From IMG/VR virus record IMGVR_UViG_3300032046_000009: DNA of 64,000 nucleotides, one strand, 5' to 3'. Under the pieces are notes generated by a model that was given only the letters and a program-made list of their open reading frames with translations, did not search any database and was not told the origin of the DNA. The stretch's first letter is position 1. Each line of letters opens with the position of its first letter. Of this stretch, positions 14,773-44,823 are shown one piece after another. This DNA is from a virus (Duplodnaviria; Heunggongvirae; Uroviricota; Caudoviricetes). Both the position numbers and the translations under genes were made by a program.

Positions 14773-15050
14773 TGAACACATTCTCTCTCAGGAGCTAAGA
14801 GGTTCCATCTGCCCTTATCATAAATGAATTGTTTTCCTTTGAAAAATAAAAAGTCAAAAGGCAAATCATTTTTACGACAAACTTCGCAAAAATAATGCAA
14901 AAAGTGAGTTTCCCTTATTTTTTGTCTATCGTGTTGTGAAAAACTATCTGTGAAAAAAAGTGTTCCACTTTGTTCTTCCAGAATAGAACCACAAGACGGA
15001 CATTTTCGAGTCAAGCGAATTGAACCGCAAGACGGACAATTTTGAATCAA
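14763..15050 (-). CDS. VxFT-tail family (ECVQFT), four CxxC pairs
   Basis: track ORF. Confidence 0.6.
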   Translation of the reverse strand: MIQNCPSCGSIRLTRKCPSCGSILEEQSGTLFFTDSFSQHDRQKIRETHFLHYFCEVCRKNDLPFDFLFFKGKQFIYDKGRWNLLAPERECVQFT

Positions 15051-15292
15051 GTAAATTGCACCTGTTCTCTAGCTTCGGATTCTGCTAGATAAGTTGTGCA
15101 ACAACAACCATAACGATAATCTTCCGCACCGTCCTTCAAAATCTCCATAAAATTAATTCCATTTCTTCTTTGTCCCTCAATAAGATGACATTTTTTGAAT
15201 CGAGCGCAATTAAAACAACCACGCTCTATCGTTAATTCTTCGTCTTGCCCGATATATGTCATTTTTTCACCAATGGAAAATTTCCCGTTCAA
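15047..15292 (-). CDS. VxFT-tail family (REQVQFT), CFNC...GCCC subfamily; probable start ATG about 15260
   Basis: track ORF; paralog of 38390..38578. Confidence 0.55.
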   Translation of the reverse strand: MNGKFSIGEKMTYIGQDEELTIERGCFNCARFKKCHLIEGQRRNGINFMEILKDGAEDYRYGCCCTTYLAESEAREQVQFT

Positions 15293-15419
15293 CTTTCTTT
15301 TTCGGTTTCGATTTTCGTTTGTGAGTTTGAGCGTATTTTTTCTGATAGTCTTTTCTTCTCTCGATTAGAAATTCTTGCATTTCTCTTCGCGCTAACGCCT
15401 CTTCAATATAATCAGTCAT
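15267..15419 (-). CDS. small basic protein (about 50 aa, MTDYIEEALARREMQEF...)
   Basis: hand-translated. Confidence 0.3.
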   Translation of the reverse strand: MTDYIEEALARREMQEFLIERRKDYQKKYAQTHKRKSKPKKKVEREIFHW

Positions 15420-15452
15420 TTTGGTTTTCCTCAAAAAAGTGGAATTTTGGGT

Positions 15453-15779
15453 TTACCATTTATCGTGTAGCCATAGCCAAATTGCACGTTGTTCAATTGG
15501 TAACTCTTCGAATTCTTTACAGTAGAAATGACGTATGAATTCGAGAAGTTTTCCATCTGCAATTTTGTGGCATTTTTTGTGAATATAGTGAATCCGTCCG
15601 TGTGCTTCGCAATGTGCAGTTTTGTGTTTCGGGTCTAGGCAAATTTCACAGATACCTTTCGGGGGGTTTTTGGGGTCAAACGGTTTCTGCAAAGTTTTTC
15701 GTGTCGGTTGTGGTGTTGGGGGTTCTTCGCCAGCAGGGTTCGCTACTATAATTTTTCTATTGCAAAAGAATCTATTCAT
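15453..15779 (-). CDS. Cys/His-rich small protein (108 aa) co-transcribed downstream of the MoxR ATPase
   Basis: track ORF; overlaps the AAA gene by 1 nt. Confidence 0.55.
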   Translation of the reverse strand: MNRFFCNRKIIVANPAGEEPPTPQPTRKTLQKPFDPKNPPKGICEICLDPKHKTAHCEAHGRIHYIHKKCHKIADGKLLEFIRHFYCKEFEELPIEQRAIWLWLHDKW

Positions 15780-16667
15780 TTAGGTATCCTCTTCTTTCTT
15801 TTTCAACTTTTCTACGTCTATCTCAGAGCTATCTTCGAAGAACGACCTAAATAAATTGCGCTCTTCTCTTGCGGTGTAAAGCGAACTTGCTATATCGATT
15901 ATGTCCTCTTCGGACATCTTCGCTTTGTAGAGTTTGCCGTAGTTTATTAGGTTGCCTGTCGTGAGGGGCGTTCTAAGTTTTCCGTTCTCGTATTCGGTTC
16001 GCGTCTTTTTGGCAATTTCTACGAACTTCGCAGAAAAGTCATAGTTTCCAGAGAACTTCTTTACCAATTCGCGTTCTTTCTGGGGGCTAAGGTATTCGAT
16101 TATCAGACCTTCAAATCGTCTAATGGTTGCAATGTTCTCGATGAATGTCCCAGAGTAACCCGATTTTTCTGAGGGGTTATAGCTGATAACGAGATAGTGC
16201 TGTGCTGTCCGTGTGAATTGCTTCTTGTATTCTGGAATATACACGTTTCCCCTAAAGTCTGCCAATGATTCCAGAAGTGAAATTATCGATGGTTCTGCAT
16301 AGTTGAACCCGTCTATGTAAAGCAGACCTTTCTCGCTGTTCAACCATTGAATTATGATTCCATCTCTTGTTTCTGTGCTTCCAGCTTTCAGAGTATCACA
16401 TGCCAGCAAATCCCACTTTGTCACGTCCCGTGTTAAGACAATTTCAAAAAGCGGAACCTCTAACAATTCAGCCAACTTGTGAACAAGAGTTGTTTTGCCC
16501 GTCCCCGTTTCGCCGACTAATCTAAGGTTGCCGACAATTTCAAGAATCGCTCTTGACTTTTCAATGTAGCCATGTTCGTCCACGAACTCGATGCCTTTGA
16601 CGTAGATGCCAGCACCTTCAAGTGCTGATTCGACCTTTGCATGAATCTTTTCAAATTCTGAGTTCAT
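15780..16667 (-). CDS. MoxR-family AAA+ ATPase
   Basis: Walker A GETGTGKT; MoxR-like block LYIDGFNYAEPSIISLLESL; 295 aa. Confidence 0.7.
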   Translation of the reverse strand: MNSEFEKIHAKVESALEGAGIYVKGIEFVDEHGYIEKSRAILEIVGNLRLVGETGTGKTTLVHKLAELLEVPLFEIVLTRDVTKWDLLACDTLKAGSTETRDGIIIQWLNSEKGLLYIDGFNYAEPSIISLLESLADFRGNVYIPEYKKQFTRTAQHYLVISYNPSEKSGYSGTFIENIATIRRFEGLIIEYLSPQKERELVKKFSGNYDFSAKFVEIAKKTRTEYENGKLRTPLTTGNLINYGKLYKAKMSEEDIIDIASSLYTAREERNLFRSFFEDSSEIDVEKLKKKEEDT

Positions 16668-16698
16668 CTTTATTACCTTACGAGTATAGATGCCAGCG

Positions 16699-16756
16699 TC
16701 CTATTTAAATGTTTGCTTAGAAAGACCATGTTCATTTTAGTTAATCAACTGATTAA
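16699..16756 (-). promoter_or_regulatory. promoter box (TATTTAAAT TATA, GACCATGTTCA upstream element) plus upstream palindromic site TTAATCAACTGATTAA (16741-16756)
   Basis: near-identical architecture repeated at 18963-19023 for the VWA gene. Confidence 0.6.
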
Positions 16757-16805
16757 AATTTCTCAAAACCCCTCTCCCGCCCGAACCAAAGGTTGCACCA
16801 AAAGT

Positions 16806-20165: not shown

Positions 20166-20396
20166 TCAATCGAAACTCACCTTTTCTGGAATCCGAAACA
20201 TAAGTTCAGAAATTCTAATATCGACTTTTCTCTTCTTTATCAGACAAACCATTTGCATTGGAAAATTTCTCTCTTTTTTATGTAGTTCCGCAGACCTAGT
20301 TAATCGGTTGCTCAATGCTTGTAAAGTATGAATTTCACTTTTCAATTCGACAAGTGGTTTCTTTTTCCATTGTGCAAGCGGAGATTTATGGGTCAT
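20166..20396 (-). CDS. VxFT-tail family variant (PEKVSFD)
   Basis: track ORF. Confidence 0.5.
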   Translation of the reverse strand: MTHKSPLAQWKKKPLVELKSEIHTLQALSNRLTRSAELHKKERNFPMQMVCLIKKRKVDIRISELMFRIPEKVSFD

Positions 20397-20608
20397 GTGA
20401 ATGACACCGTTTCTTTAGCTTTACAGAATCGTGAACAAACTTCTTTCAAATCTTTTGGGTATTCCCCAACTTCGGATTTCTCAAACTTTCGCGCACAATC
20501 GGAGCAATAACAACCCCCGTATTGCACTTTGCCATGACTAAGACCTAATCTAGCGCACCCATTATTGCACACGAAATGTTTTCCGCATTTTCCACAAATT
20601 TTGTTCAT
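20393..20608 (-). CDS. VxFT-tail family (KETVSFT), CxxCGKxFxC subfamily
   Basis: track ORF. Confidence 0.6.
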   Translation of the reverse strand: MNKICGKCGKHFVCNNGCARLGLSHGKVQYGGCYCSDCARKFEKSEVGEYPKDLKEVCSRFCKAKETVSFT

Positions 20609-20883
20609 GTGAATCGAACAACCTCTCTCATATTAAACCAGAGATTCCAGCAATATTCCCATCTTCCAAAATGTTTCCCATGAAAGATGCCCCATTCGTC
20701 ATAACATCCTCTACAAATCCAGATGTTATGTTTAAATCCGCTATTTACTAAAAAGATTAAAACCGCATCTATCGTTTTGGTATCTTCGTCTTTATGTTCA
20801 AAATTATTAGAATTGCTTACGTGGAACCATTTCTTTTTTGGAAGAGTTACAGTTATTGGTTTTCCACATTTCGAACATTTCAA
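20605..20883 (-). CDS. VxFT-tail family (REVVRFT)
   Basis: track ORF. Confidence 0.6.
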   Translation of the reverse strand: MKCSKCGKPITVTLPKKKWFHVSNSNNFEHKDEDTKTIDAVLIFLVNSGFKHNIWICRGCYDEWGIFHGKHFGRWEYCWNLWFNMREVVRFT

Positions 20884-21089
20884 GTGAACTCTACCTTCTC
20901 TTTGAGTTTGGCTAAATATTCTGGAATATGGTCTGAAATTATTATGTCATTCGGATATTTTTCATGACTCCACTTGACAAAAACCATCCAACATTTTATA
21001 CAAAGAAACGCCCATTTTCCGTTATTCTTTTCTCCGCACACGGGACAAAAATCTGGAAGTTCTTCTTTATCAACGAGTTTGTTTGTCAA
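20880..21089 (-). CDS. VxFT-tail family (KEKVEFT); TTG start at the TTGA junction
   Basis: track ORF 20880..21131 trimmed. Confidence 0.55.
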   Translation of the reverse strand: MTNKLVDKEELPDFCPVCGEKNNGKWAFLCIKCWMVFVKWSHEKYPNDIIISDHIPEYLAKLKEKVEFT

Positions 21090-21283
21090 GTGAATAACAC
21101 CTTCTCTTTTTCGGGTATTCCCCCATAGCACAATTCAAGTGACCCTATATCTTCAGTAAATTTTGTTCCCCATTTTTTGATTGAACATTCTTTACAATAG
21201 CATAATGTAGCGTCTGGGGAACATTCTTCGTCACAATTACAGAAGAACTTTTTTCCGCAAACTTGGCACGTCATTTCTTTCAA
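21086..21283 (-). CDS. VxFT-tail family (KEKVLFT), CxxCGKxFxC subfamily
   Basis: track ORF. Confidence 0.6.
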   Translation of the reverse strand: MKEMTCQVCGKKFFCNCDEECSPDATLCYCKECSIKKWGTKFTEDIGSLELCYGGIPEKEKVLFT

Positions 21284-21423
21284 GTGAATTGAACCTCTTC
21301 TTTTTGTTTTCTCACTTCACAAATCGAACGTTGTCTGCAACTCTTTTGACAAAAATCGTCATAATGATTTATCTCCCCGACATCGCAGTAAATTATTTTT
21401 CCAGCGCAGTATATTTCCGTCAT
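21280..21423 (-). CDS. VxFT-tail family (46 aa, EEVQFT)
   Basis: hand-translated MTEIYCAGKIIYCDVGE... Confidence 0.45.
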   Translation of the reverse strand: MTEIYCAGKIIYCDVGEINHYDDFCQKSCRQRSICEVRKQKEEVQFT

Positions 21424-21629
21424 GTGAATTGCACCACTTCTTTTAAGTCAACCTCTTCGCAACCTTCTGGACGACCCGACCCATGATTGCATTTTTCACA
21501 CCAACAAACGCTATATTCGTGAGGACATTTTCCCGTTATTGAAGATTTAGTCCATCCTCTCCCTTTACAAGTGAAAGTTCTACCACAATTACCGCACTTC
21601 TTTGTTAGAGCTAATGGATATTTCTTCAT
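21420..21629 (-). CDS. VxFT-tail family (KEVVQFT)
   Basis: track ORF. Confidence 0.6.
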   Translation of the reverse strand: MKKYPLALTKKCGNCGRTFTCKGRGWTKSSITGKCPHEYSVCWCEKCNHGSGRPEGCEEVDLKEVVQFT

Positions 21630-21841
21630 GTAAATTGCACTACCTCTTTATCTACCCTTTTAATAAACTTGTCCCAGAGAAAGGTTGCTTTTGCTTCGGA
21701 TTCTGGAATGTCGGCATCGTTTTTGTGAAGTTCGTAAAAATTATACCATTTTTCTCTGCATTTTTGACAAAGAATATCGTTATTCGTTTGAAAAGATTCA
21801 CCGCATTTTTCACAAATACGATTATAGGATTTTTGTGTCAT
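21626..21841 (-). CDS. VxFT-tail family (KEVVQFT)
   Basis: track ORF. Confidence 0.6.
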   Translation of the reverse strand: MTQKSYNRICEKCGESFQTNNDILCQKCREKWYNFYELHKNDADIPESEAKATFLWDKFIKRVDKEVVQFT

Positions 21842-21939
21842 GTGAATTGCACTCTCACGGGTTCTTTCTCAATTTCAAAACGGTCATACCATTTTTTGAG
21901 ACTTCTATATTTTGTAAAAATATGTTGTAGATGGTTCAT
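21838..21939 (-). CDS. VxFT-tail family mini member (33 aa, PVRVQFT)
   Basis: track ORF 21838..22041 trimmed to the ATGA junction. Confidence 0.45.
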   Translation of the reverse strand: MNHLQHIFTKYRSLKKWYDRFEIEKEPVRVQFT

Positions 21940-22151
21940 GTAAATTGTACAACCTCTTGATAACGATATTTGTTTCGCTCCATTCGTTCTTCGCAAGAAC
22001 GACCATTTTCCCTTACTGTTTTTGCGTGGCATAATCCACATTCACAACCATTACTATGTTTGCTCTTTTCAAGTTTTCCACAATCATTATCACAGTAAAA
22101 AATTCGTCCACACGTTCTACAAGTTCTTTTGAAAAGTTCGGGGACTATCAT
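21936..22151 (-). CDS. VxFT-tail family (QEVVQFT)
   Basis: track ORF. Confidence 0.6.
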   Translation of the reverse strand: MIVPELFKRTCRTCGRIFYCDNDCGKLEKSKHSNGCECGLCHAKTVRENGRSCEERMERNKYRYQEVVQFT

Positions 22152-22528
22152 GTAAACTCAACCTTTTCTTTTGAATGTAAACGTACAAGTTCGCTATATC
22201 CCTCATTTATTTCTAGTGTCATATCTAAAATTTCTGAATATGCCAAGTCGGTTGTGACAGTCCCGTAACAAGTTCCACTAGCAATTACCTTATCGCCCTT
22301 CCAAATCTCATAGTCAAATTGGTAGCTATCATTTTCTTTATCTATCTCTTTGAAAGCTCCAATAGGAAAAATCAGTTCAAACCCCTTATCCCATAATTTC
22401 TCCCGTTTCAAAATGATAAGGATATTTTTCTCTATCGTGTCATCTGAATATTCTTCCATAATATCTGTTAGTTCGGTTTCAAACTCAGGTTCTTTGCGTA
22501 AAGTCCAATTCGAAAAAGTGCCACTCAA
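22148..22528 (-). CDS. VxFT-tail family, larger non-Cys member (126 aa, KEKVEFT), TTG start
   Basis: track ORF. Confidence 0.55.
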   Translation of the reverse strand: MSGTFSNWTLRKEPEFETELTDIMEEYSDDTIEKNILIILKREKLWDKGFELIFPIGAFKEIDKENDSYQFDYEIWKGDKVIASGTCYGTVTTDLAYSEILDMTLEINEGYSELVRLHSKEKVEFT

Positions 22529-22670
22529 GTAAACTCAACTCGCTCTCTGTTATCTGGAATAAAGCAAGTCCAACTTGTGCAATACCACAATCCTCTTTTT
22601 GAATCCCATACTCTTCCCTCACAATCCAACTCACACTTTTTGCAATAATCAGGTTGTTCGTTTCGATTCA
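22525..22670 (-). CDS. VxFT-tail family (RERVEFT); start at the ATGA junction
   Basis: track ORF 22525..22731 trimmed. Confidence 0.5.
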
Positions 22671-22895
22671 TGTAAATTCTACCTGTTCTTTGTCTATAAT
22701 TCCTATGAACTTGTGATACTCTTCTTTCCAAACTTTATTTTGAAGTTGGAAACCTTCTAATATCTGAATCTTTTTCTCATAAATTTTTATCCAAACTGTT
22801 CTGCACCCCATACAAATAATTCTCATAGTTTCTTTAGATTCTCCTATCTTAACTTCTCGTCCCTGAATTTCTTTGTGACATTTAGCGCACTTCAA
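22668..22895 (-). CDS. VxFT-tail family (KEQVEFT); TTG start
   Basis: track ORF 22668..22934 trimmed. Confidence 0.55.
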   Translation of the reverse strand: MKCAKCHKEIQGREVKIGESKETMRIICMGCRTVWIKIYEKKIQILEGFQLQNKVWKEEYHKFIGIIDKEQVEFT

Positions 22896-23050
22896 GTGAA
22901 CAATACCTTCTCTCTGATTTTGATTTCTCTGCACAAAATTTTGTAAGGATAATTTTCTCTGTCAGCACCACATGAATGACTTTTACAAGTTTTATAGCAG
23001 AAGTTAGCACAACCGTTGCAATGACACTTTTCACAATCGGGGTTATTCAT
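22892..23050 (-). CDS. VxFT-tail family (48 aa, REKVLFT)
   Basis: hand-translated MNNPDCEKCHCNGCANFC... Confidence 0.45.
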   Translation of the reverse strand: MNNPDCEKCHCNGCANFCYKTCKSHSCGADRENYPYKILCREIKIREKVLFT

Positions 23051-36640: not shown

Positions 36641-36786
36641 CAAGTAAAGGTTACTTTCTCCACGTCCATTTTGTGCATACAGTCATAACAAAGCCACTTT
36701 CTTCCTTTAAGAACTACCACAATCTGTTTTCTTCCGCATCCGTCACACGTTAATCCTGTATAAGCCATAGTGATTTTGGCATTCAT
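36640..36786 (-). CDS. VxFT-tail family (49 aa, EKVTFT), terminal member of array 6; stop lies inside a promoter box
   Basis: hand-translated MNAKITMAYTGLTCDGCGRK... Confidence 0.45.
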   Translation of the reverse strand: MNAKITMAYTGLTCDGCGRKQIVVVLKGRKWLCYDCMHKMDVEKVTFT

Positions 36787-37076
36787 GTAAATGCAACCTT
36801 CTCTTTTCTGGTTTCTATGTTTTTCAAAAACTCTTCAAAATATTTGTTCCAAATTTCGCTGAATTCTTTCCACGCTTTTTCACCCTCATCGTTATCATTT
36901 CCAAATTTTGCACTATTGTTATAATTTTTACGAGCATCATTTAATCTTTGTATTCTACTTCCTTTGTCAAGAAAGTGTGTCCATTTTGAAAAACAATCTT
37001 TACATATAGTATATGGGGCAATAGAATGGCATGTCTTTTCCTCATTACAAACAGAACAAATTTTCAGGTCTGTCAA
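36783..37076 (-). CDS. VxFT-tail family (KEKVAFT), TTG start
   Basis: track ORF. Confidence 0.6.
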   Translation of the reverse strand: MTDLKICSVCNEEKTCHSIAPYTICKDCFSKWTHFLDKGSRIQRLNDARKNYNNSAKFGNDNDEGEKAWKEFSEIWNKYFEEFLKNIETRKEKVAFT

Positions 37077-37213
37077 GTAAACTCAACTCTTTCTTTCTGT
37101 TGAATATAAAATCCGTCAGCTATACAGAAATATTGTTTCTTCTCATCGTCCCATTCTTTGCCCCAACAATCCATTTGACAACCTTTGCACTTATGTTCTG
37201 GAAGTTCGGTCAT
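37073..37213 (-). CDS. VxFT-tail family (44 aa, KERVEFT)
   Basis: hand-translated MTELPEHKCKGCQMDCW... Confidence 0.45.
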   Translation of the reverse strand: MTELPEHKCKGCQMDCWGKEWDDEKKQYFCIADGFYIQQKERVEFT

Positions 37214-37350
37214 GTAAACTGTACCTTCTCCTTTGTATCCTTTATTGGTTTTCCCATGACAATCATTTTATCTCCTCTAATAGCAACCAAGAACCCGTCT
37301 TTCTCCATTATTTCTATGGCTTTCTGAATGTCAGCGTAGTCTATACTCAT
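37210..37350 (-). CDS. VxFT-tail family, non-Cys (45 aa, KEKVQFT)
   Basis: hand-translated MSIDYADIQKAIEIMEKDG... Confidence 0.4.
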   Translation of the reverse strand: MSIDYADIQKAIEIMEKDGFLVAIRGDKMIVMGKPIKDTKEKVQFT

Positions 37351-37364
37351 AGTGATTCTTTTGC

Positions 37365-37688
37365 TCAAGTAAAACTCACAACCTCTGGAAGTGTATCAAA
37401 TGGTTCGCTAGTTCTGCCACAAATTTTTACCCACTCATTTTCGTTGTGCATGTGAAAATGTTCTCTAATTGGTTTGCCGTTTGTTGAGCCGAAATGATAC
37501 CATCCATCATTTTCAAGTTTCCACGAATTTAGTTGGTAAACTTGCCCGTCTGAATCTTCTTGAAAAATACTGCAACTACATTTGAAAGTGTCTCCAACTT
37601 TGGCTTTCAGTTTTTCGTCTTGAGTTACGCTTTGGTTGTTCGGTTGATGAAACATTTTTTGTTTGCAGAAGGGACAATAGTAAGTCAA
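37365..37688 (-). CDS. VxFT-tail family (PEVVSFT)
   Basis: track ORF. Confidence 0.6.
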   Translation of the reverse strand: MTYYCPFCKQKMFHQPNNQSVTQDEKLKAKVGDTFKCSCSIFQEDSDGQVYQLNSWKLENDGWYHFGSTNGKPIREHFHMHNENEWVKICGRTSEPFDTLPEVVSFT

Positions 37689-37921
37689 GTGAACTCGACC
37701 TTTTCCTTATCAACATACTCTATTCTGAAAACTTTACCACATTTCTTGCAAGTTACTTTAAGAGGATAAGGGTCGTGTCCTTCAACAACTTTATATCCCA
37801 TTAAGAATTTATGTCCGTTCGGAACCCATTTTATGTCTTTTTGCTCAAAAGCAAATCCCCATTCATTCCATCCGTTTCCACATTTAGGACATTTTACGTT
37901 TTGTCTATTTTTCGGTTTCAA
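37685..37921 (-). CDS. VxFT-tail family (KEKVEFT)
   Basis: track ORF. Confidence 0.6.
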   Translation of the reverse strand: MKPKNRQNVKCPKCGNGWNEWGFAFEQKDIKWVPNGHKFLMGYKVVEGHDPYPLKVTCKKCGKVFRIEYVDKEKVEFT

Positions 37922-38121
37922 GTAAATTGCACCCTTATTCTATCATCCACTTTAGGTTTCAAGTCGAAAATCTCTCGCTGTATATTCTTATATCTGAGCC
38001 ATTTATTTTCTTGTTTAAAATGTTCTTCACAAAGAAAAATTATTTCTACTCTGTTCACCTTTTTGTAAACGTGAACTTCTTTTACAGCTTCTTTATTGCA
38101 CATCGGAATTTGGCATTTCAA
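37918..38121 (-). CDS. VxFT-tail family (RIRVQFT)
   Basis: track ORF. Confidence 0.6.
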   Translation of the reverse strand: MKCQIPMCNKEAVKEVHVYKKVNRVEIIFLCEEHFKQENKWLRYKNIQREIFDLKPKVDDRIRVQFT

Positions 38122-38393
38122 GTGAATTGCACCTTCACAAAATCGTCCGCGAACTCTTTGGCTAATTCGTTTGCTTCACCTATTCCCTTTGAAAATATTA
38201 TAGACGCGCCCCATCTTTTCTTTTCAATTTTGATATTTGGGTCTTTCTCTTTAAGAAATTTCAACCACTTCCAAAAACAACCACAATCAGCACCAATATA
38301 AAATACAGGATTTAGTTTAAGAATGTTGGTTGTCCCCGTTTCCCTAAACATCGTGGCTTTTCCGTTTTCCTTTCCGCATTTAGCACAAATCAT
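38118..38393 (-). CDS. VxFT-tail family (DFVKVQFT); ATG start at the junction
   Basis: track ORF 38118..38438 trimmed. Confidence 0.55.
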   Translation of the reverse strand: MICAKCGKENGKATMFRETGTTNILKLNPVFYIGADCGCFWKWLKFLKEKDPNIKIEKKRWGASIIFSKGIGEANELAKEFADDFVKVQFT

Positions 38394-38578
38394 GTGAACA
38401 GCACCTTTTCTTTGACAAACTCGTAATTTTGGCAACAACAGCCAGCACGATAAGGTATATTATTTCTACCTTTCTGAATTTCTTTTGGGTCTATTCCTTT
38501 TTCACTATCTATGGAACCACGACAATTTTTGTATTTCTTACAGTTGAAGCAACCACGATTAATTGATAAACCACTCAA
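38390..38578 (-). CDS. VxFT-tail family (KEKVLFT), CFNC...GCCC subfamily; TTG start
   Basis: track ORF 38390..38611 trimmed; paralog of 15047..15292. Confidence 0.55.
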   Translation of the reverse strand: MSGLSINRGCFNCKKYKNCRGSIDSEKGIDPKEIQKGRNNIPYRAGCCCQNYEFVKEKVLFT

Positions 38579-38763
38579 GTAAAGTTCACCTTTTCCTTTA
38601 CCTCTATGCAAGTATGTCTAGGTTGTGGTTCTCCACTATTACTAACTGCTGTCCAGAGGCAATGTTCACAGCAGAAGTTTTGTTCACCAATATCGTGAGC
38701 GTCCCCGTATTGTTCATAAGACCGTCCGCAAACGTCACACTTAACAATTTGCCAAGTCGTCAA
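38575..38763 (-). CDS. VxFT-tail family (KEKVNFT)
   Basis: track ORF. Confidence 0.6.
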   Translation of the reverse strand: MTTWQIVKCDVCGRSYEQYGDAHDIGEQNFCCEHCLWTAVSNSGEPQPRHTCIEVKEKVNFT

Positions 38764-38996
38764 GTGAACACAACCTTCTCTCTAGTATAGTCTGCAATTT
38801 TCCCCTTAAATACTTCCCAAGTTGGGTTTATTTTCTTAGGATATTTAGCAACAAAAAATGTATTATGGTCAGCAAAAAACTCTAGCCATTTTCTTAGACA
38901 AGAACCACAAAGAATAGCGTCTATAGAATGAGGATATTTTAGTTTATCTTCTGTCACCGTGAAAACTCGTCCACATTTCTCACAGTTTCTTTTAGT
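38760..38996 (-). CDS. VxFT-tail family (REKVVFT); TTG start overlapping the upstream TTTGACTAA
   Basis: track ORF 38760..39047 trimmed. Confidence 0.5.
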   Translation of the reverse strand, partial: TKRNCEKCGRVFTVTEDKLKYPHSIDAILCGSCLRKWLEFFADHNTFFVAKYPKKINPTWEVFKGKIADYTREKVVFT

Positions 38997-39225
38997 CAAA
39001 GCTAACAACTTCTGGACGTTCCTCTTCTGCAAGAACTTCCTTTGCACTTCCTTCCATGTTTCCTAAAATATAAGTGAATCCTTTTTCTTTACCTTCCGTA
39101 CAAAGTTCATACCATCTTGCAAGTCGTCTGAGATGTTCTTCACTTTTAAAATGAGTATCAACGCCTCTCTTTGTTGCAAAGTTTTTCTTGCACAAACCAC
39201 AACGCGCGTAGAATTTCTTAGGCAT
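38992..39225 (-). CDS. VxFT-tail family variant (PEVVSFD, TAA stop) with C2H2-like zinc finger (CGLC-x12-H-x5-H)
   Basis: track ORF. Confidence 0.55.
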   Translation of the reverse strand: MPKKFYARCGLCKKNFATKRGVDTHFKSEEHLRRLARWYELCTEGKEKGFTYILGNMEGSAKEVLAEEERPEVVSFD

Positions 39226-40640: not shown

Positions 40641-40658
40641 GCTCCATGCCCCAAACTT

Positions 40659-41070: not shown

Positions 41071-41088
41071 GAGAAAGTTGGTATATGC

Positions 41089-41277
41089 TCAGAAGGAAGC
41101 GGGTGGCGGGGAAGCTGTTGTAATAAAGTCTGGGCACTTGCCATTCTCCTTTATTGCCTGAACGATAAGGTCGTTTACTGGAATACGCTTGCAGTATTCT
41201 TCCCTTAAACATTCCTTACATTTTGCACGTTCCTTTATCTCTTCAAATGGTATCTTATTCACCACCCTTATTGCCAT
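41089..41277 (-). CDS. small Cys-rich protein (62 aa)
   Basis: track ORF. Confidence 0.45.
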   Translation of the reverse strand: MAIRVVNKIPFEEIKERAKCKECLREEYCKRIPVNDLIVQAIKENGKCPDFITTASPPPASF

Positions 41278-41552
41278 ATTTCCCTTAATATTTCGTGGTA
41301 GTACAATCCAAGACTCTCTAAGTATTTGTCATATTGTTTAGGTCTTGTTTTTGTCATATTTGTAATTATCCAATGAAGAAACTCGTGATTAAGAACGCAA
41401 CACATATCTTCTACATTAAGCCACTTTTCTTGGTCAGTAATCTCCACTTTAGCCGAACCTTTTTTAACCCAAATTTTTGCTCGTCTATGATTTTTAGGCG
41501 TACTTTTTCGCACCTTAATAATGAGGTTTTCAAGATTTATTTCTTCGGTCAA
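41268..41552 (-). CDS. minimal HExxH (HEFLH) zincin-like protein, TTG start translationally coupled to the last array-7 member
   Basis: track ORF 41268..41576 trimmed; VLNHEFLHWI motif. Confidence 0.5.
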   Translation of the reverse strand: MTEEINLENLIIKVRKSTPKNHRRAKIWVKKGSAKVEITDQEKWLNVEDMCCVLNHEFLHWIITNMTKTRPKQYDKYLESLGLYYHEILREIWQ

Positions 41553-41788
41553 GTGAATTGTACCTTCTCTATCCATTCAGCCAAAAACTTGGCGTAAATT
41601 TTTTCCCATAATTCAGACCATTTAGGAGTTCTCGCTACATCATGAAGTTTGGAAAGAAATGGTTGTATAAAATTACCCCATTCTGTACTACATTCTCTGC
41701 AAAGAAAATGTTCAAATTTGCCTAAAACCAATTCAGATTCTTTTCCACAACGGTCACATTTTCTACCTTTAAGCCAATTAGCTCTCAT
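41549..41788 (-). CDS. VxFT-tail family (IEKVQFT)
   Basis: track ORF. Confidence 0.6.
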   Translation of the reverse strand: MRANWLKGRKCDRCGKESELVLGKFEHFLCRECSTEWGNFIQPFLSKLHDVARTPKWSELWEKIYAKFLAEWIEKVQFT

Positions 41789-41964
41789 GTGAATTGCACT
41801 ACCTCTCTCGGTATTATCACTTTTAAATCCCCACGTTTTATTTCCCTTTCAATTGGAATTTTGATACTTTTACCACCATGAGTGCAAAAAATTTCTCCAT
41901 GTTTGTTAGTCCGTAATATGCATCCTTTGGTAAGTGTGCAACAAGTACATTTATATTCAGTCAA
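41785..41964 (-). CDS. VxFT-tail family (56 aa, REVVQFT)
   Basis: hand-translated (L)TEYKCTCCTLTKGC... Confidence 0.45.
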   Translation of the reverse strand: MTEYKCTCCTLTKGCILRTNKHGEIFCTHGGKSIKIPIEREIKRGDLKVIIPREVVQFT

Positions 41965-42251
41965 GTAAACTGCACCTTTATTCTCTTTAATTCTTTCGGC
42001 ACATCTTTAGGCGTTCCCCACATATCCCTTTCATCATAAAATCTCCATTTGTCATTAAGAAGATGTTCCCATTTATTATCATAGAAAATCTTTGGAGTCC
42101 CATCTTCATTTTTGAATGCCTCGCTAATAATATTGTGCCCGCACTCACAAGCATAGAAACTCGCGCCTAAATCTCCAAACCAACCTATGCCATTTCGTTT
42201 TCCAGTAAATATCAGTTCACTTTTACAGAACGGACAAATCCAAACAGTCAT
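41961..42251 (-). CDS. VxFT-tail family (RIKVQFT)
   Basis: track ORF. Confidence 0.6.
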   Translation of the reverse strand: MTVWICPFCKSELIFTGKRNGIGWFGDLGASFYACECGHNIISEAFKNEDGTPKIFYDNKWEHLLNDKWRFYDERDMWGTPKDVPKELKRIKVQFT

Positions 42252-42451
42252 GTGAACTGCACTACCTCTGGGTCCTCTGGTACTATAAAAACTTTGTTGC
42301 TATGCTCAAAATATGTCCCATCTGTTTTTCTATTCCAAATACACGTCAATGATTCTTTGTCGAAAAGATGTACTCTTCGAACAAACTGAGCATGACAATC
42401 TTTACATTCCATACATACTTCTTTCTTTTCTATATTTCGTGAATGGCACAT
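42248..42451 (-). CDS. VxFT-tail family (PEVVQFT); paralog of 44551..44823 but apparently N-terminally truncated
   Basis: track ORF; in-frame conserved KCPMC codons lie upstream of the ATG with no start codon. Confidence 0.5.
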   Translation of the reverse strand: MCHSRNIEKKEVCMECKDCHAQFVRRVHLFDKESLTCIWNRKTDGTYFEHSNKVFIVPEDPEVVQFT

Positions 42452-42495
42452 AGGGCATTTAGTGAAGTTGAATTTTAAACCAAAAGTATTGAGAG

Positions 42496-42726
42496 CTATG
42501 TGAATTCCACCTTCTCCTTTGCATCAATTCCAAAATCCATTCTACTTCTACAACGCTCTTTTCCAGAGACAATTTCTCTGCCACCCTTCTCTCTCTCAAA
42601 TTCTTGAATGCAAGCCCCACAATAGCAAGCAGTTTCTTGTTTAGCTTTAAGTTCTATTCCACATTCTCCGTGACACATAAAACTGCAATGGCAATAACAA
42701 CACTTTTTATGATACCATCGTTTCAT
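42496..42726 (-). CDS. VxFT-tail family (KEKVEFT, TAG stop)
   Basis: track ORF. Confidence 0.6.
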   Translation of the reverse strand: MKRWYHKKCCYCHCSFMCHGECGIELKAKQETACYCGACIQEFEREKGGREIVSGKERCRSRMDFGIDAKEKVEFT

Positions 42727-42971
42727 GTAAACTGCACCTTTACTGGTCTATTTATTCTCTTTGTTCTTACTTTTAGTCCTAAGTAATTTGAAAAATACAT
42801 ACCGAACTCATAAGCATGTTCTTCACAAAATTCATCGTGGCATATATGTGTTATTTTTGTAGCAAATTCACGAGTGCTCCCTTCGCTTCGCACCATTTTG
42901 TATGACAAAATAATCTCTGATTCTTTTCTACAATCAACCGCGAGACAACAGGTTAAAACACGACCATTCAA
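42723..42971 (-). CDS. VxFT-tail family (PVKVQFT); TTG start; paralog of 44306..44554
   Basis: track ORF 42723..43034 trimmed; shared AYEFxMYFSNYLGLKV block. Confidence 0.55.
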   Translation of the reverse strand: MNGRVLTCCLAVDCRKESEIILSYKMVRSEGSTREFATKITHICHDEFCEEHAYEFGMYFSNYLGLKVRTKRINRPVKVQFT

Positions 42972-43096
42972 GTAAACTGCACCTTTTCCCTTCTGTGTTT
43001 GTTCTGTCTCCAAATTGCAACAACAAGCATCCAATCTATTACTCTAGCTTTGTATTGAATTTCTGTATCCCAATTATCAAATAACTTTGACTTCAC
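42968..43096 (-). CDS. VxFT-tail family, non-Cys (about 42 aa, REKVQFT) with GTG start in an ACGTGA junction
   Basis: hand-translated. Confidence 0.4.
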   Translation of the reverse strand: MKSKLFDNWDTEIQYKARVIDWMLVVAIWRQNKHRREKVQFT

Positions 43097-43446
43097 GTAA
43101 ATTGCACCTTTTCTCTAGTGATTCCTTCTCTGGAAGCCCAACGTATATTAGATGCGATTCCATTTACACGACATTGAGTTTGTGATAAAAATTCAATCTC
43201 AGTTATTAGTATTTCCCCTGTAGTAGTTTCAATCATTGGTTTTGAATCCTTCATTGATGTACTTTCTATATGAAGCCTGAACATTTTGTTATTATCACAA
43301 TCTTTACATAATTTCTGTGCGTTATCTATTTTAAGTTCGATTTCCCAAATGTCGCCACCATTCACTTTTACTGTCATATCGACTGATGAAATCCCCTCAT
43401 ATTTCTTGTTACCCTGAACTAGATATGCCCGTAAAAATTTGCTCAT
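43093..43446 (-). CDS. VxFT-tail family (REKVQFT; T codon ACG)
   Basis: track ORF 43093..43488 trimmed to the ATGA junction. Confidence 0.55.
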   Translation of the reverse strand: MSKFLRAYLVQGNKKYEGISSVDMTVKVNGGDIWEIELKIDNAQKLCKDCDNNKMFRLHIESTSMKDSKPMIETTTGEILITEIEFLSQTQCRVNGIASNIRWASREGITREKVQFT

Positions 43447-43658
43447 GTAAACTTCACCTTTACAGGTCTCTTTAATTCTTCTCTCCATTCAGTAGCAATT
43501 CTTTTCCATTTTGAAAGACGTAAAGTTTTATTACGGTCTTTGATATATATTCTTACTCTTTTTATCATTTTGCGTTTTTGTCTTTTTGCCTCTAATACCA
43601 TTGCAATAATTAGACCACAAATTGTACTTATCATTCCAATAATTAGTAGTTCAGTCAT
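43443..43658 (-). CDS. VxFT-tail family member with TM helix (PVKVKFT)
   Basis: track ORF. Confidence 0.55.
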   Translation of the reverse strand: MTELLIIGMISTICGLIIAMVLEAKRQKRKMIKRVRIYIKDRNKTLRLSKWKRIATEWREELKRPVKVKFT

Positions 43659-43882
43659 GTAAATTGCACTACCTCTCGTTCTAATTCTGGATGACTTTCT
43701 GGTTTAGCTATTATCTGTCCGCAATTGTGACATTGAACAACTTTGTTATAAGAATTCCATTTTATTGCTCCATTATATCCACAACCGAAACAAATATTAG
43801 AATGTATAGACCTATGTTCTCGCGTAGTCAAACGAACCAAACCACAATCTTTATCATAATGCAAAACTTTGAGTTGTTTCAT
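43655..43882 (-). CDS. VxFT-tail family (REVVQFT)
   Basis: track ORF. Confidence 0.6.
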   Translation of the reverse strand: MKQLKVLHYDKDCGLVRLTTREHRSIHSNICFGCGYNGAIKWNSYNKVVQCHNCGQIIAKPESHPELEREVVQFT

Positions 43883-44061
43883 GTGAATTGAACCTTCTCC
43901 CGTTCATTCATAATTGACACATAAACCGTACAATGTTCTCTTATTCTGCAAGATTTTATGCAATATTCTTTGTTAAGCGAATTATGTACTGTGCATCCCG
44001 AAATACTCCATTTAACGTTCAGTTTAGAAGGATGCGTTAAAAGAACTGGTTCAGCACTCAT
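43879..44061 (-). CDS. VxFT-tail family (REKVQFT)
   Basis: track ORF. Confidence 0.6.
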   Translation of the reverse strand: MSAEPVLLTHPSKLNVKWSISGCTVHNSLNKEYCIKSCRIREHCTVYVSIMNEREKVQFT

Positions 44062-44309
44062 GTAAACTGCACCACTTCTCGTTCTTCATATTTCCCACTC
44101 ATAAAGTTTTCCCAAGAATTAGTCCACGCACTTTGGAATTTAATAGAATCAACATTCTTTACTTCCTTATCATAAACTTTTCCCCACGCCGCACGACAAT
44201 TTGGGCAAAGATAAACAGTTTCCAAATTTTGTCCATTTTTATCAATTGGATGTACTCTTACTAACGCATCAGACATATTATTGCACTTGTCACATGGTCT
44301 CTTCATCAT
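44058..44309 (-). CDS. VxFT-tail family (REVVQFT)
   Basis: track ORF. Confidence 0.6.
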   Translation of the reverse strand: MMKRPCDKCNNMSDALVRVHPIDKNGQNLETVYLCPNCRAAWGKVYDKEVKNVDSIKFQSAWTNSWENFMSGKYEEREVVQFT

Positions 44310-44554
44310 GTAAATTGTACCCTCTCTTTAAGTCTCATCTCTTCGATTATTACTTTTAGCCCTAGATAATTCGAGAAATACATTGAGAATTCATATGCGT
44401 CATCTTCGCAAAACGGTTCAACATTAACTCTTCCTTGTATTTTATAGTAAAGTAAGAATTCTGCCTCTTTTGGGCATTGGTCACTCCGACCATGCATTGC
44501 TACACATCTAGTGTGTCCGTCTTTTCTTATATTAGCAATAGTTGACCCAATCAT
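44306..44554 (-). CDS. VxFT-tail family (KERVQFT)
   Basis: track ORF. Confidence 0.6.
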   Translation of the reverse strand: MIGSTIANIRKDGHTRCVAMHGRSDQCPKEAEFLLYYKIQGRVNVEPFCEDDAYEFSMYFSNYLGLKVIIEEMRLKERVQFT

Positions 44555-44823
44555 GTAAAATGCACAACCTCTGGGTCTTCTGGCGTTACAAAGACGCTAG
44601 TGCTTTCAGGCTCAATTTTAGTGCCATTTCCTCTACGATTCCAAATAACAATAGATTCTGTTGGGGAATTACTTGAACAACTTCTAACAAACATTGCCGT
44701 ACAATCTTCGCAACGAACCCACGGTACTTCCTTTTCAGTATGTTGGCTATGAAGATGAGGGGCTAAATTTCGTGAGCCGCACATAGGACATTTCTTGAAG
44801 TTCTTTTTAAGTATGATTGTCAT
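44551..44823 (-). CDS. VxFT-tail family (PEVVHFT); ATG start at 44823
   Basis: track ORF 44551..44952 trimmed; the 5 prime extension is the overlapping frame of the upstream member. Confidence 0.55.
   Translation of the reverse strand: MTIILKKNFKKCPMCGSRNLAPHLHSQHTEKEVPWVRCEDCTAMFVRSCSSNSPTESIVIWNRRGNGTKIEPESTSVFVTPEDPEVVHFT

What the first reader, a model, noticed from the sequence alone, without database searches (positions are those of the whole stretch)
15047..44823. Recent paralog pairs and subfamilies inside the arrays, including an apparently N-terminally truncated copy
42723..42971 and 44306..44554 share AYEFxMYFSNYLGLKV. 42248..42451 and 44551..44823 share KCPMC(H/G)SRN...PEDPEVV(Q/H)FT. 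15047..15292 and 38390..38578 share RGCFNC...YRxGCCC. In 42248..42451 the in-frame conserved KCPMC codons lie upstream of the only ATG, and no start codon precedes them. This indicates ongoing duplication and decay and makes the locus look like a diversifying multigene family.
Basis: seen in the sequence. Interest (0 to 1): 0.55.

Follow-up and report, generated by a model that had tools for sequence, protein, structure and literature searches.

The report
Old paralogs in phage gene-cassette arrays
The three look-alike gene pairs are real but ancient relatives sitting in long arrays of tiny phage genes that all end in the same short adaptor sequence, where genes are swapped in and out between strains, and the "truncated" copy is an intact gene that has kept an unusual ATA start codon.

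Summary
With the shared tail masked, the three pairs are the three best hits among 82 small genes (E 5e-17, 7e-12, 4e-9). They are not recent: 48-52% amino-acid and 58-62% nucleotide identity, and each copy has a closer orthologue in another phage (55-97%). The "truncated" gene 42248..42451 is not truncated. At the position where 72 of 76 junctions carry ATG, TTG or GTG inside NTGA, it has ATA inside ACATAG, in frame with KCPMC. That junction is identical in at least seven assemblies. It is also conserved in two further lineages (80% and 86% identity) behind different upstream genes, and the 16 codons before the internal Met change mostly synonymously.

The setting is arrays of about 76 tail-bearing genes of 33-126 aa, mostly unrelated to each other, in an uncultivated, probably large phage. 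Each gene ends in (K/R)E(K/V)VxFT plus TGA. This roughly 21-nt adaptor supplies a Shine-Dalgarno-like AGGTG, an 8-nt spacer and an overlapping stop and start for the next gene. Strain comparisons show genes gained, lost and reordered, with crossovers inside the adaptor. The closest analogue is PeSL-mediated shuffling in T4-like phages, but this adaptor is coding and has no promoter or stem-loop. Whether the peptide tail has its own function is unresolved.

The parts
44551..44823 (-). Lar-A cassette (90 aa), a Zn-ribbon protein. Its ATG start overlaps the upstream stop (ACATGA). Tail PEVVHFT.
   Evidence: Pfam Lar_restr_allev 31.8 bits (cut-off 28.6), residues 8-64. PHROG 599 Lar-like, E 1.3e-5. 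Orthologue in L014 at 92%.
42248..42499 (-). Lar-B cassette (83 codons). This is the supposed truncated copy. The reading frame runs from ATA at 42499..42497. The first in-frame ATG at 42451 is the Met inside CPMC.
   Evidence: 51% aa identity to Lar-A. Orthologues with the same ACATAG junction in L045 (80%) and L066 (86%), and with ACATGA in L067 (76%) and L064 (57%).
42496..42499 (-). ATAG junction. The TAG stop of the upstream gene (42496..42726) overlaps the ATA start of Lar-B. It is the only internal junction in the window without NTGA.
   Evidence: 72 of 76 junctions are NTGA; the other three exceptions are array ends with TAA. 100% identical in L004, L005, L006, L007, L008 and L010.
44306..44554 (-). 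AYEF-A cassette (82 aa), immediately downstream of Lar-A.
   Evidence: Orthologues in L014 (97%) and L064 (64%).
42723..42971 (-). AYEF-B cassette (82 aa), TTG start in a TTGA junction. It lies one gene upstream of Lar-B.
   Evidence: Orthologues in L045 (73%) and L066 (79%, directly upstream of Lar-B).
15047..15292 (-). RGCFNC...YRxGCCC family member. Probable true start is the ATG at 15262.
   Evidence: Orthologues L046_1827 (57%) and L039_1587 (55%).
38390..38578 (-). RGCFNC...YRxGCCC family member (62 aa).
   Evidence: Orthologue L039_2172 (62%). L039 carries both lineages.
10197..10424 (-). Distant third member of the RGCFNC family (KGCFNC...YRLGCSC).
   Evidence: (E 0.017 to 15047).
25704..25931 (-). 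Possible fourth, very distant RGCFNC member (QGCFNC...GSSC).
   Evidence: Motif-level similarity only (about 28% identity).
41268..45906 (-). Largest array: 23 back-to-back cassettes joined by 4-nt stop/start overlaps. It contains both the Lar and the AYEF pairs.
   Evidence: No regular promoter-like or terminator-like sites inside.
45934..45946 (-). Promoter-like motif TTTATAAGGGACG upstream of the first cassette of the 41268..45906 array.
   Evidence: 23 copies in the window against 0.29 expected.
44820..44987 (-). 55-aa cassette present in the window but absent from nine other strain contigs. In L014 an unrelated 54-aa cassette occupies the slot.
   Evidence: The L004 junction is a hybrid of the two flanking adaptors.
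36640..39047 (-). Array of 11 cassettes, including 38390..38578.
20166..23585 (-). Array of 16 cassettes.
24606..26469 (-). Array of 9 cassettes.
9746..13005 (-). Array of about 15 cassettes. The terminal gene 9746..9961 keeps the EQVQFT tail but has a TAA stop and no overlapping start.
14763..15292 (-). Two-cassette array. The terminal tail RECVQFT is followed by TAA and the palindrome TTAATCAAC...

Best explanation
The six genes are members of three old small-protein families: a Lar-like Zn-ribbon family, an 'AYEF' family and an 'RGCFNC' Cys-rich family. They sit in gene-cassette arrays of an uncultivated, probably large phage.

Shown:
- About 76 minus-strand genes of 33-126 aa end in (K/R/P)E(K/V)VxFT. 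Most are unrelated to each other.
- The DNA under this tail has the consensus GARAAGGTGCAATTYACWTGA. It contains a Shine-Dalgarno-like AGGTG, an 8-nt spacer and a stop codon that overlaps the next gene's start (ATGA or TTGA).
- Strain-to-strain differences are whole cassettes gained, lost, replaced or reordered, with breakpoints inside this adaptor.
- The A and B copies of each pair diverged before the phage lineages sampled here split.
- The Lar-B gene carries a conserved ATA in the start position, overlapping a TAG stop.

Inferred:
- Each array is one transcript from an upstream phage promoter, and the cassettes are translated by termination-reinitiation.
- The adaptor lets any cassette be expressed behind any other and serves as the short homology for recombination.
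- Lar-B is translated from AUA, probably at a low level. Its first CxxC knuckle is therefore retained.
- The B copies arose either by an old duplication of a linked Lar+AYEF module followed by differential loss, or by import of diverged cassettes from related phages.
For: Paralogy and age:
- The three pairs are the top three in the tail-masked all-versus-all search.
- Identity is 48-52% aa and 58-62% nt, with third codon positions matching at 34-57%.
- There are no long DNA repeats within the window.
- Cross-phage orthologues are closer than in-genome partners: Lar-A/L014 92%, Lar-B/L045 82%, AYEF-A/L014 97%, AYEF-B/L045 73%, 38390/L039 62%, 15047/L046 57%.

Adaptor:
- 76 tails in the window; 72 junctions are NTGA.
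- 278 unique junctions were collected from related metagenome contigs.
- Synonymous sites are biased toward AGGTG: AAG 92% in tails against 23% in gene bodies, and GTG 57% against 13%.
- 115 of 122 non-identical homologues keep V.F[TS].

Shuffling:
- The junction in L004 is a hybrid of the two adaptors flanking the cassette it lacks.
- L009 and L014 have a different cassette order and content.
- 8 of 10 unique array breakpoints fall in the adaptor, against 15.6% expected.

Operon structure:
- No regular promoters or terminators lie inside the arrays.
- Junctions have no consistent hairpins; fold z-scores range from -2.05 to +1.12.
- The promoter-like motif lies upstream of first cassettes, which lack the adaptor.

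ATA start:
- ATA is in frame at the canonical start position.
- The region is identical in six other contigs.
- ACATAG is also present in L045 and L066, each behind a different upstream cassette, while L067 and L064 have ACATGA.
- The first 17 codons show 7 synonymous and 3 nonsynonymous differences, and the whole gene 24 and 16.
- The Lar model begins at the CPMC knuckle.

The cassettes are real genes: 23 orthologue pairs show 340 synonymous and 395 nonsynonymous codon differences.

Background literature:
- ATGA overlaps give termination-reinitiation coupling, and the intragenic SD usually matters (PMC6728339).
- AUA initiates at 1-2% of AUG in E. coli (10.1101/063800).
Against: - There are no expression data. 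Coupling, polycistronic transcription and AUA initiation are all inferred.
- The invariant TTYAC spacer is not explained by a Shine-Dalgarno function. Non-array genes in the same window use ATGA overlaps without it.
- Array-terminal cassettes keep ExVxFT even though the SD bias, the start codon and the TGA are lost. This points to an additional constraint, either on the peptide or for recombination.
- The recombination mechanism is inferred only from breakpoint positions, and there are just 10 of them.
- Lar-B scores below the Pfam cut-off (14.4 bits).
- Phage identity rests on gene content and weak PHROG/Pfam hits. No structural genes lie in the window.
Confidence: 0.75

Rival explanations
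1. One reading: the pairs are recent tandem or segmental duplicates, and 42248..42451 is an N-terminally truncated, decaying copy.
For: - The pairs are the closest relatives within the window.
- No ATG, GTG or TTG precedes KCPMC.
- AUA is a poor initiator in E. coli, at 1-2% of AUG.
Against: - Identity is 58-62% nt and 48-52% aa.
- Orthologues in other phages are closer than the in-genome partner.
- The A pair runs Lar then AYEF, while the B pair runs AYEF, one gene, then Lar. This is not a simple tandem copy.
- The ATA/TAG junction is conserved in three lineages at 80-86% aa identity, with mostly synonymous change in the N-terminal 16 codons.
Confidence: 0.03
2. The conserved tail is primarily a peptide signal: a C-terminal ...E-K-V-x-F-T-COOH tag. 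It might be a common degron, a targeting, packaging or export tag, or a nascent-peptide element that tunes termination at UGA and reinitiation. On this view the nucleotide conservation is secondary.
For: - Variation in the motif falls on third codon positions and on the free x codon. GT, TT and AC are fixed while the Val wobble uses all four bases and the Phe wobble uses both.
- In the unbiased homologue set the only deviations in the last two residues are FN, FI, FD and one F-to-V; Ser is counted as a match.
- Array-terminal cassettes keep ExVxFT with a relaxed SD bias, an ACC Thr codon, a TAA/TAG stop and no downstream start.
- Other ATGA-overlapped genes in the window do without the motif.
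- A precedent exists in eukaryotes for amino-acid-sequence-dependent termination-reinitiation (PMC3923131; title and abstract only).
Against: - Synonymous sites are strongly biased at the nucleotide level, so RNA/DNA selection certainly acts.
- Once the SD and start constraints are removed, only TTYAC needs explaining. One variable site out of five coinciding with a wobble position is weak statistics.
- The terminal-cassette set was chosen by the tail pattern itself, which is a selection bias.
- No candidate tail-binding protein was identified.
Confidence: 0.3
3. The B copies (42248, 42723) are not in-genome duplicates but xenologues. They would be diverged cassettes imported from a related co-infecting phage by recombination at the adaptors.
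For: - The B cassettes are absent from the nearest relatives L009 (about 93% nt) and L014.
- They are present in more distant phages: L045 (about 77% nt to the window) and L066.
- Lar-B carries its own ATAG junction into three different upstream contexts.
Against: - Differential loss after an old duplication gives the same pattern.
- L039 carries both RGCFNC lineages, as the window does, so at least that duplication is old and vertically kept.
- No complete genomes are available for reconciling gene trees with a genome tree.
Confidence: 0.4
4. Lar-B is expressed only from the internal AUG (42451) as a 67-aa protein, or it is a silent pseudogene. On this view the upstream conservation is incidental.
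For: - Gene callers predict the 67-aa product (P0004).
- AUA is a weak start codon.
Against: - No SD-like sequence precedes the internal AUG (AACTTCACTAAATGCCCTATG).
- That Met is the conserved residue of the CPMC knuckle in all homologues.
- A start there removes the first Cys of the Zn site, which is covered by the Lar model.
- The upstream 16 codons stay open and change 7:3 synonymous to nonsynonymous.
- An ATG-started sister lineage encodes the same N-terminus, MSLNTFSLKFNFAKCPMC.
Confidence: 0.08
5. The missing start codon is an assembly or sequencing error.
For: None found.
Against: - Window 42240..42530 is 100% identical in L004, L005, L006, L007, L008 and L010, which come from JGI, ENA and Logan assemblies of different samples.
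- The same ACATAG is present in the diverged L045 and L066.
Confidence: 0.01

Closest known systems
PeSL (promoter-early stem-loop) regulatory cassettes of T4-like phages (Arbiol et al. 2010, PMC2839356; Comeau et al. 2014, PMC4122927)
   Same: - Short repeated expression elements flank small ORFan genes in plastic regions.
- They end with a Shine-Dalgarno sequence and the start of the next gene.
- Recombination between copies produces insertions, deletions and replacements of whole genes between close relatives.
   Different: - PeSLs are intergenic and consist of a sigma-70 promoter plus a stem-loop terminator, so each gene is its own transcription unit.
- Here the element lies inside the upstream coding sequence (its last 7 codons plus stop).
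- It has no promoter-like hexamers and no conserved hairpin.
- It links genes by a 4-nt stop/start overlap and gives about 76 proteins a common C-terminus.
- A separate promoter/palindrome element that looks more PeSL-like also exists in this phage.
Translationally coupled overlapping gene pairs (ATGA; termination-reinitiation; Huber et al. 2019, PMC6728339)
   Same: A 4-nt ATGA-type overlap with an SD motif inside the 3' end of the upstream gene.
   Different: - Ordinary coupled pairs do not share a fixed 21-nt sequence or a common peptide.
- Here TTG is as common as ATG at junctions (132 and 117 of 278) and GTG is rare.
- One lineage uses ATA/TAG.
Integron gene-cassette arrays
   Same: - Long arrays of small, promoterless, mostly unrelated cassettes in one orientation behind an upstream promoter.
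- Cassette content and order differ between close strains.
   Different: - No integrase domain was found in the 20 larger ORFs scanned.
- The junction is about 21 nt and coding, not a 60-140-nt attC with imperfect inverted repeats.
- Hybrid junctions look like homologous exchange rather than site-specific exchange.
Lar restriction-alleviation protein family (Pfam PF14354; PHROG 599)
   Same: Lar-A passes the Pfam gathering score over residues 8-64, including both CxxC knuckles. Lar-B is its paralogue.
   Different: - Both carry a 20-26-residue C-terminal extension ending in the array tail, which lies outside the family model.
- Lar-B alone is below the cut-off.
- No functional test has been done.
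- There are no detectable homologues in cultured phages.
Capsid-targeting sequence of T4 internal proteins in hypervariable ip loci (from my own knowledge, not checked in a paper here)
   Same: A short conserved terminal peptide shared by otherwise unrelated small proteins encoded in a hypervariable phage locus.
   Different: - The T4 signal is N-terminal, is cleaved by the prohead protease, and is found on a handful of proteins.
- Here the peptide is C-terminal, is on about 76 proteins per 64 kb, and is superimposed on a translation signal.

Membership tests
Recent segmental or tandem duplicates | High nucleotide identity between copies, including synonymous sites | tested here: not met
   58-62% nt identity; third codon positions match at 34-57%. 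The longest within-window repeat is 100 nt at 71%.
Recent segmental or tandem duplicates | Copies closer to each other than to orthologues in other genomes | tested here: not met
   Every copy has a closer orthologue elsewhere, at 55-97% against 40-51%.
Pseudogene or truncated gene | Loss of the reading frame or relaxed constraint in the affected part | tested here: not met
   The frame is open from the junction. There are 7 synonymous and 3 nonsynonymous changes in codons 1-17 against L045. The same N-terminus is found in L066 and in the ATG-started L067.
Pseudogene or truncated gene | Absence of any usable start codon | tested here: inconclusive
   No ATG, GTG or TTG is present. ATA sits at the canonical reinitiation position and is conserved in 3 lineages. 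AUA use was not measured.
Lar_restr_allev (PF14354) | Profile HMM score above the gathering threshold | tested here: met
   Lar-A (44551..44823) scores 31.8 bits against 28.6. Lar-B scores 14.4 bits and is below the threshold. It is linked to the family only through Lar-A (BLASTP E 5e-17).
Lar_restr_allev (PF14354) | Alleviation of type I restriction | not testable with these tools
   Requires a phage or plasmid restriction assay.
PeSL regulatory cassettes | Sigma-70-like promoter within the repeated element | tested here: not met
   The adaptor consensus GARAAGGTGCAATTYACWTGA has no -35/-10 pair. Promoter-like hits in the arrays number 51 against 38.6+/-5.8 in shuffles and are not positioned at junctions.
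PeSL regulatory cassettes | Stable stem-loop acting as terminator or attenuator | tested here: not met
   12 junctions folded. Z-scores range from -2.05 to +1.12 and there is no common structure.
PeSL regulatory cassettes | Intergenic location | tested here: not met
   The element is the last 7 codons plus the stop of the upstream gene.
PeSL regulatory cassettes | Recombination between copies creates gene indels and replacements between close relatives | tested here: met
   Hybrid junction in L004. Reordering in L009 and L014. 8 of 10 breakpoints lie in the adaptor.
PeSL regulatory cassettes | Excised mini-circles | not testable with these tools
   Needs read-level or PCR evidence.
Integron | IntI tyrosine recombinase adjacent to the array | tested here: not met
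   No integrase domain in the 20 larger ORFs of the window. The rest of the genome was not examined.
Integron | attC sites (imperfect inverted repeats) between cassettes | tested here: not met
   The junction is a 21-nt coding sequence without a conserved hairpin.
Termination-reinitiation coupled genes | Overlapping stop and start (ATGA type) | tested here: met
   72 of 76 junctions in the window and 257 of 278 unique junctions overall are NTGA with ATG, TTG or GTG.
Termination-reinitiation coupled genes | SD motif in the 3' end of the upstream gene | tested here: met
   AGGTG lies 8 nt upstream of the start, with codon bias toward it at synonymous sites (p 1e-20 and 3.5e-13).
Termination-reinitiation coupled genes | Downstream translation depends on upstream translation | not testable with these tools
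   Needs reporter constructs or ribosome profiling.

The most novel reading that the evidence does not exclude
A clade of uncultivated phages uses an undescribed, integrase-free gene-cassette system. A dual-coded adaptor of about 21 nt acts as a universal plug. It is the C-terminal tag ...EKVxFT of one protein, it is the Shine-Dalgarno, spacer and overlapping start/stop for the next, and it is the crossover site for cassette exchange. Dozens of unrelated small genes, probably for host takeover or anti-defence, can then be shuffled and still be expressed from one transcript. In the strongest version the shared peptide also acts, either as a nascent-chain signal for termination-reinitiation or as a common targeting or turnover tag. 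Start-codon identity (ATG, TTG, or ATA in Lar-B) would then be used to set the dose of each cassette.
Probability: 0.35. Interest if true: 0.8.

Novelty: new variant of a known kind. Interest (0 to 1): 0.6.

Why it matters
The paralogue pairs on their own are ordinary. Their setting is not. About 76 small proteins in 64 kb share one C-terminal heptapeptide, because a single coding adaptor joins them, and related contigs in many metagenomes are built the same way.

If the adaptor works as inferred, it would explain how phages keep large and rapidly changing sets of tiny accessory genes expressed. It would be a natural plug-and-play design for polycistronic expression, and a simple sequence signature for finding phage accessory or anti-defence gene arrays in metagenomes.

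The conserved ATA/TAG junction is a clean natural test case for non-canonical start codons at termination-reinitiation sites. It is also a warning that gene callers truncate or mis-start such genes. Here they produced 67-aa, 54-aa and 99-aa calls for what is one 83-84-codon gene.

Tried and rejected
- Megablast of 41500..46500 against cultured phages found no match. tblastn of Lar-A against the same set also found nothing.
- The CobS-like ATPase has only hits of about 25% identity in diverse phages, so it gives no taxonomic placement.
- An adaptor pattern scan of IMG/VR returned two single chance hits.
- The 575-aa protein has no relatives in IMG/VR.
- Searches of the large protein database with Lar-A and the DUF7569 cassette returned only the same phage population and one relative at 73%.
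- Pfam on all 82 cassettes gave single hits to generic Zn-ribbon families, Lar and DUF7569, so function cannot be assigned broadly.
- Literature searches for the tail peptide, and for coding or translationally coupled cassette arrays in phages, found nothing closer than PeSL.
- Explanations considered and rejected:
  - Programmed frameshifting or readthrough at the junction. There is no slippery site, and each downstream frame begins with its own start codon.
  - A stop-codon reassignment. Large ORFs are intact under code 11.
  - A conserved RNA hairpin at junctions.
  - Internal promoters in the arrays.
- No tRNAs were found in the window.
- Structure prediction was not run. It would not distinguish between the hypotheses.

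Full report
**1. Check of the observation**

The six reading frames exist on the minus strand at the stated coordinates and carry the quoted strings.

I defined 82 small array genes, using the start codon that overlaps the preceding stop. I removed the last seven residues and ran all-versus-all BLASTP. The three pairs in the finding are the three best pairs:
- 42248/44551: 43% over 82 aa, E 5e-17
- 42723/44306: 47% over 55 aa, E 7e-12
- 15047/38390: 45% over 51 aa, E 4e-9

The paralogy is therefore real and does not depend on the shared tail.

That ATG is the first in-frame ATG rather than the only one.

**2. The setting**

All genes in the window run on the minus strand, and GC is about 38%.

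Seventy-six minus-strand ORFs between about 9.7 and 45.9 kb, plus one at 55.8 kb, end in (K/R/P)E(K/V)VxFT. The underlying DNA consensus is GARAAGGTGCAATTYACWTGA. In 72 of 76 cases the TGA stop overlaps the next gene's start:
- ATGA: 39
- TTGA: 31
- GTGA: 2

Three of the four exceptions are array ends with TAA. The fourth is the junction in front of 42248.

The genes are 33-126 aa (median 72.5). Cys makes up 5.4% of residues, and 33 of 82 have at least two CxxC motifs. With the tail masked, 53 of 82 have no relative in the window at E<=1e-3. The remainder form eight small families.

Only a few genes hit Pfam: Lar_restr_allev, DUF7569 and generic Zn-ribbon families.

Larger neighbouring genes include an RNA ligase, a KaiC/RecA-like ATPase, an SPFH protein, a CobS-like AAA ATPase, glycosyltransferases and a trypsin-like peptidase. 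No cultured phage is similar. I read this as a non-structural region of an uncultivated, probably large phage.

**3. What the tail is at the nucleotide level**

The K-V codons of the tail form AGGTG, 8 nt upstream of the overlapping start. Synonymous sites are pulled toward this sequence:

| Codon | In tails | In gene bodies | p |
|---|---|---|---|
| AAG among Lys codons | 92% | 23% | 1e-20 |
| GTG among Val codons | 57% | 13% | 3.5e-13 |

- First cassettes of arrays lack the adaptor. Instead they sit 25-35 nt downstream of a separate repeated motif, TTTATAWRGGACG, which has 23 copies against 0.29 expected.
- Inside the arrays, promoter-like and terminator-like sites are not regular.
- Junctions have no common hairpin.

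I infer that each array is one transcript and that cassettes are translated by termination-reinitiation. This mechanism has been shown for ATGA-overlapped genes with an intragenic SD (PMC6728339).

**4. The arrays are shuffled at the adaptor**

Exact-protein look-ups and one metagenome pattern scan recovered strain variants and diverged relatives.

- The 55-aa cassette 44820..44987 is absent from nine other contigs. The L004 junction is a hybrid of the two adaptors that flank the cassette in the window, with the crossover between GGTGCA and GTTCAC. In L014 the same slot holds an unrelated 54-aa cassette.
- L009 (about 93% identity) has the order 43655, 42968, new, 43443-like, 42496-like, new, 41268. 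The window has 43655, 43443, 43093, 42968, 42723, 42496, 42248, 41961, 41785, 41549, 41268.
- Of 10 unique array-internal breakpoints of HSPs at >=85% identity, 8 lie within -5..+30 nt of a tail stop codon, against 15.6% expected. The other two are also at gene boundaries.

About 35 of the 51 scanned loci carry at least two tail ORFs. Several of these have no DNA similarity to the window. Across all loci there are 278 unique junctions with the same logo.

Of 122 non-identical homologues of window cassettes, found without using the tail, 115 end in V.F[TS].

Orthologue pairs show 340 synonymous and 395 nonsynonymous codon differences, so these are real but fast-evolving genes.

**5. Age of the paralogues**

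| Pair | aa identity | nt identity | Third-position identity |
|---|---|---|---|
| 42248 / 44551 | 52% | 62% | 57% |
| 42723 / 44306 | 51.5% | 58% | 34% |
| 15047 / 38390 | 48% | 59% | 47% |

These values are over aligned codons. The window contains no DNA repeat longer than 100 nt, and that one is only 71% identical.

Each copy has a closer orthologue in another phage:
- Lar-A to L014: 92%
- Lar-B to L045: 82%
- AYEF-A to L014: 97%
- AYEF-B to L045: 73%
- 38390 to L039_2172: 62%
- 15047 to L046/L039: 55-57%

L039 carries both RGCFNC lineages. The B copies are missing from the nearest relatives (L009, L014) but are present in more distant ones (L045, L066).

The duplications therefore predate the divergence of these phages. 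The present distribution reflects either differential loss or cassette import, and I cannot separate the two.

**6. The 'truncated' copy**

At the junction, the paralogue Lar-A reads ...TTCACATGACAATC... while Lar-B reads ...TTCACATAGCTCTC.... ATA at 42499..42497 is in frame with KCPMC and sits exactly where the start belongs. The upstream gene stops with the overlapping TAG.

- **Not an assembly error.** The 291-nt region is 100% identical in six other contigs from JGI, ENA and Logan assemblies.
- **Conserved in other lineages.** L045 (80% aa) and L066 (86% aa) have the same ACATAG, each behind a different upstream cassette. L067 (76%) and L064 (57%) have ACATGA.
- **Under purifying selection.** Against L045, the first 17 codons show 7 synonymous and 3 nonsynonymous differences, and the whole gene shows 24 and 16.
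- **Same N-terminus everywhere.** It reads (I/M)(A/S)LNT(F/Y)xLK(F/L)NFxKCPMC in all lineages.
- **The internal Met is a poor start.** The Lar model begins at this CPMC knuckle, so a start at the internal Met would remove a Zn ligand. No SD precedes that Met.

I conclude that the gene is intact and uses AUA, most likely through reinitiation after UAG. AUA gives 1-2% of AUG in E. coli (10.1101/063800), so expression is probably low. Initiation at AUA is inferred, not measured.

**7. What remains unexplained**

The invariant TTYAC (Phe-Thr) spacer is not needed for ATGA coupling elsewhere in the window.

Array-terminal cassettes keep ExVxFT although the SD bias, the NTG and the TGA are gone, and ACC Thr codons appear. 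This set was selected by the tail pattern itself, so the evidence is biased.

Either the peptide has its own role or the adaptor is kept as recombination homology. I rate a peptide-level function at about 0.3.

**8. Comparison with known systems**

- **PeSL.** The closest analogue in how it works is PeSL-mediated modular shuffling in T4-like phages (PMC2839356, PMC4122927). Membership fails on promoter, stem-loop and intergenic location.
- **Integrons.** They share the array logic, but no integrase or attC was found here.
- **Translational coupling.** The junction meets the sequence criteria for termination-reinitiation coupling.
- **Lar.** Lar-A is a member of Pfam Lar_restr_allev by score. 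Lar-B is linked only through its paralogue.

Literature searches found no description of a shared coding adaptor or tail of this kind. The searched library is incomplete.

**9. Verdict**

The interpretation of recent duplication, truncation and decay is mostly wrong, although the locus is indeed a diversifying set of small genes.

What is there is a cassette array with a dual-coded adaptor, old paralogous modules and a conserved non-canonical start codon. Interest is 0.6. I class it as a new variant of a known kind (regulatory-repeat-mediated cassette shuffling combined with translational coupling).

Noticed in passing
window, 23 sites, e.g. 45934-45946(-), 28109-28121(-), 23605-23617(-), 14313-14325(-), 56652-56664(-), 643-655(-): A repeated promoter-like motif TTTATAWRGGACG lies within a conserved intergenic element of about 55 nt (TGAGCATGGTCnTTCTAGGCAAACnTTTATAAGGGACGCTG). 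It has 23 copies against 0.29 expected. Of these, 21 are on the coding (minus) strand, 25-35 nt upstream of the first genes of transcription units. It is probably a phage-specific promoter class.
   Followed up: partly
window 40630-40700 and 40310-40380; also 16740-16760, 18990-19010, 9340-9360, 14350-14370, and directly after the stops at 14763 and in L040: The palindrome TTAATCA(A/G)(C/T)TGATTAA accompanies several promoter elements and follows array-terminal stop codons. A 316-nt deletion in strain L004 (window 40657-40341) lies exactly between two copies. This is a second recombinogenic repeat, more PeSL-like than the adaptor.
   Followed up: partly
window 48734-49537 (+): A small inverted mini-array lies on the opposite strand. 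It has three tail-bearing cassettes: 48734-48976 ending ERVKVQFD, 48973-49155 ending GEKVEFT, and 49152-49271 ending KTKVQFT. They are joined by TTGA overlaps and followed by an 89-aa ORF. The second belongs to the MICxKCGKxFxC Zn family.
   Followed up: partly
window 44306-44823 and 42248-42971; L014 9484-10004; L045; L064; L066 2669-3165; L067/L068: The Lar-like and AYEF families occur within 1.3 kb or less of each other in all seven contexts examined, in both orders. They are directly adjacent in window A, L014 and L066. This may be a two-gene functional module that was duplicated or moved as a unit, or it may only be residual synteny.
   Followed up: partly
window junctions, all arrays: TTG is as frequent as ATG as the overlapping start (31 and 39 in the window; 132 and 117 among 278 unique junctions). 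GTG is rare (8 of 278), although ACG Thr codons are 17% in gene bodies. Because of the NTGA overlap, the second residue of every cassette is encoded by an ANN codon (T, K, N, I, S, R or M).
   Followed up: partly
window 20166-20396, 55480, 55656-55805, 48734-48976(+); L054 2676-2930, L029, L040, L064: Rare tail variants change only the last residue: ...EKVxFD (four in the window), FI, FN, and one F-to-V (KVKVT in L009). Val and Phe are almost invariant, while the C-terminal Thr is more tolerant.
   Followed up: partly
L045 (P0005, 99 aa), L066 (P0007, 54 aa), window and L004 (P0004, 67 aa): Public gene calls for the same Lar-B gene have three different wrong N-termini because of the ATA start. 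One is extended into the upstream gene's out-of-frame region, and two are truncated at internal Mets.
   Followed up: yes
L014 14364-14690 and L066 5653-5850: Genes in related contigs carry weak precomputed Pfam hits to Acb5 (PF26761). The family name suggests an anti-CBASS protein, but I did not check this. If so, it would fit an anti-defence role for these regions.
   Followed up: no
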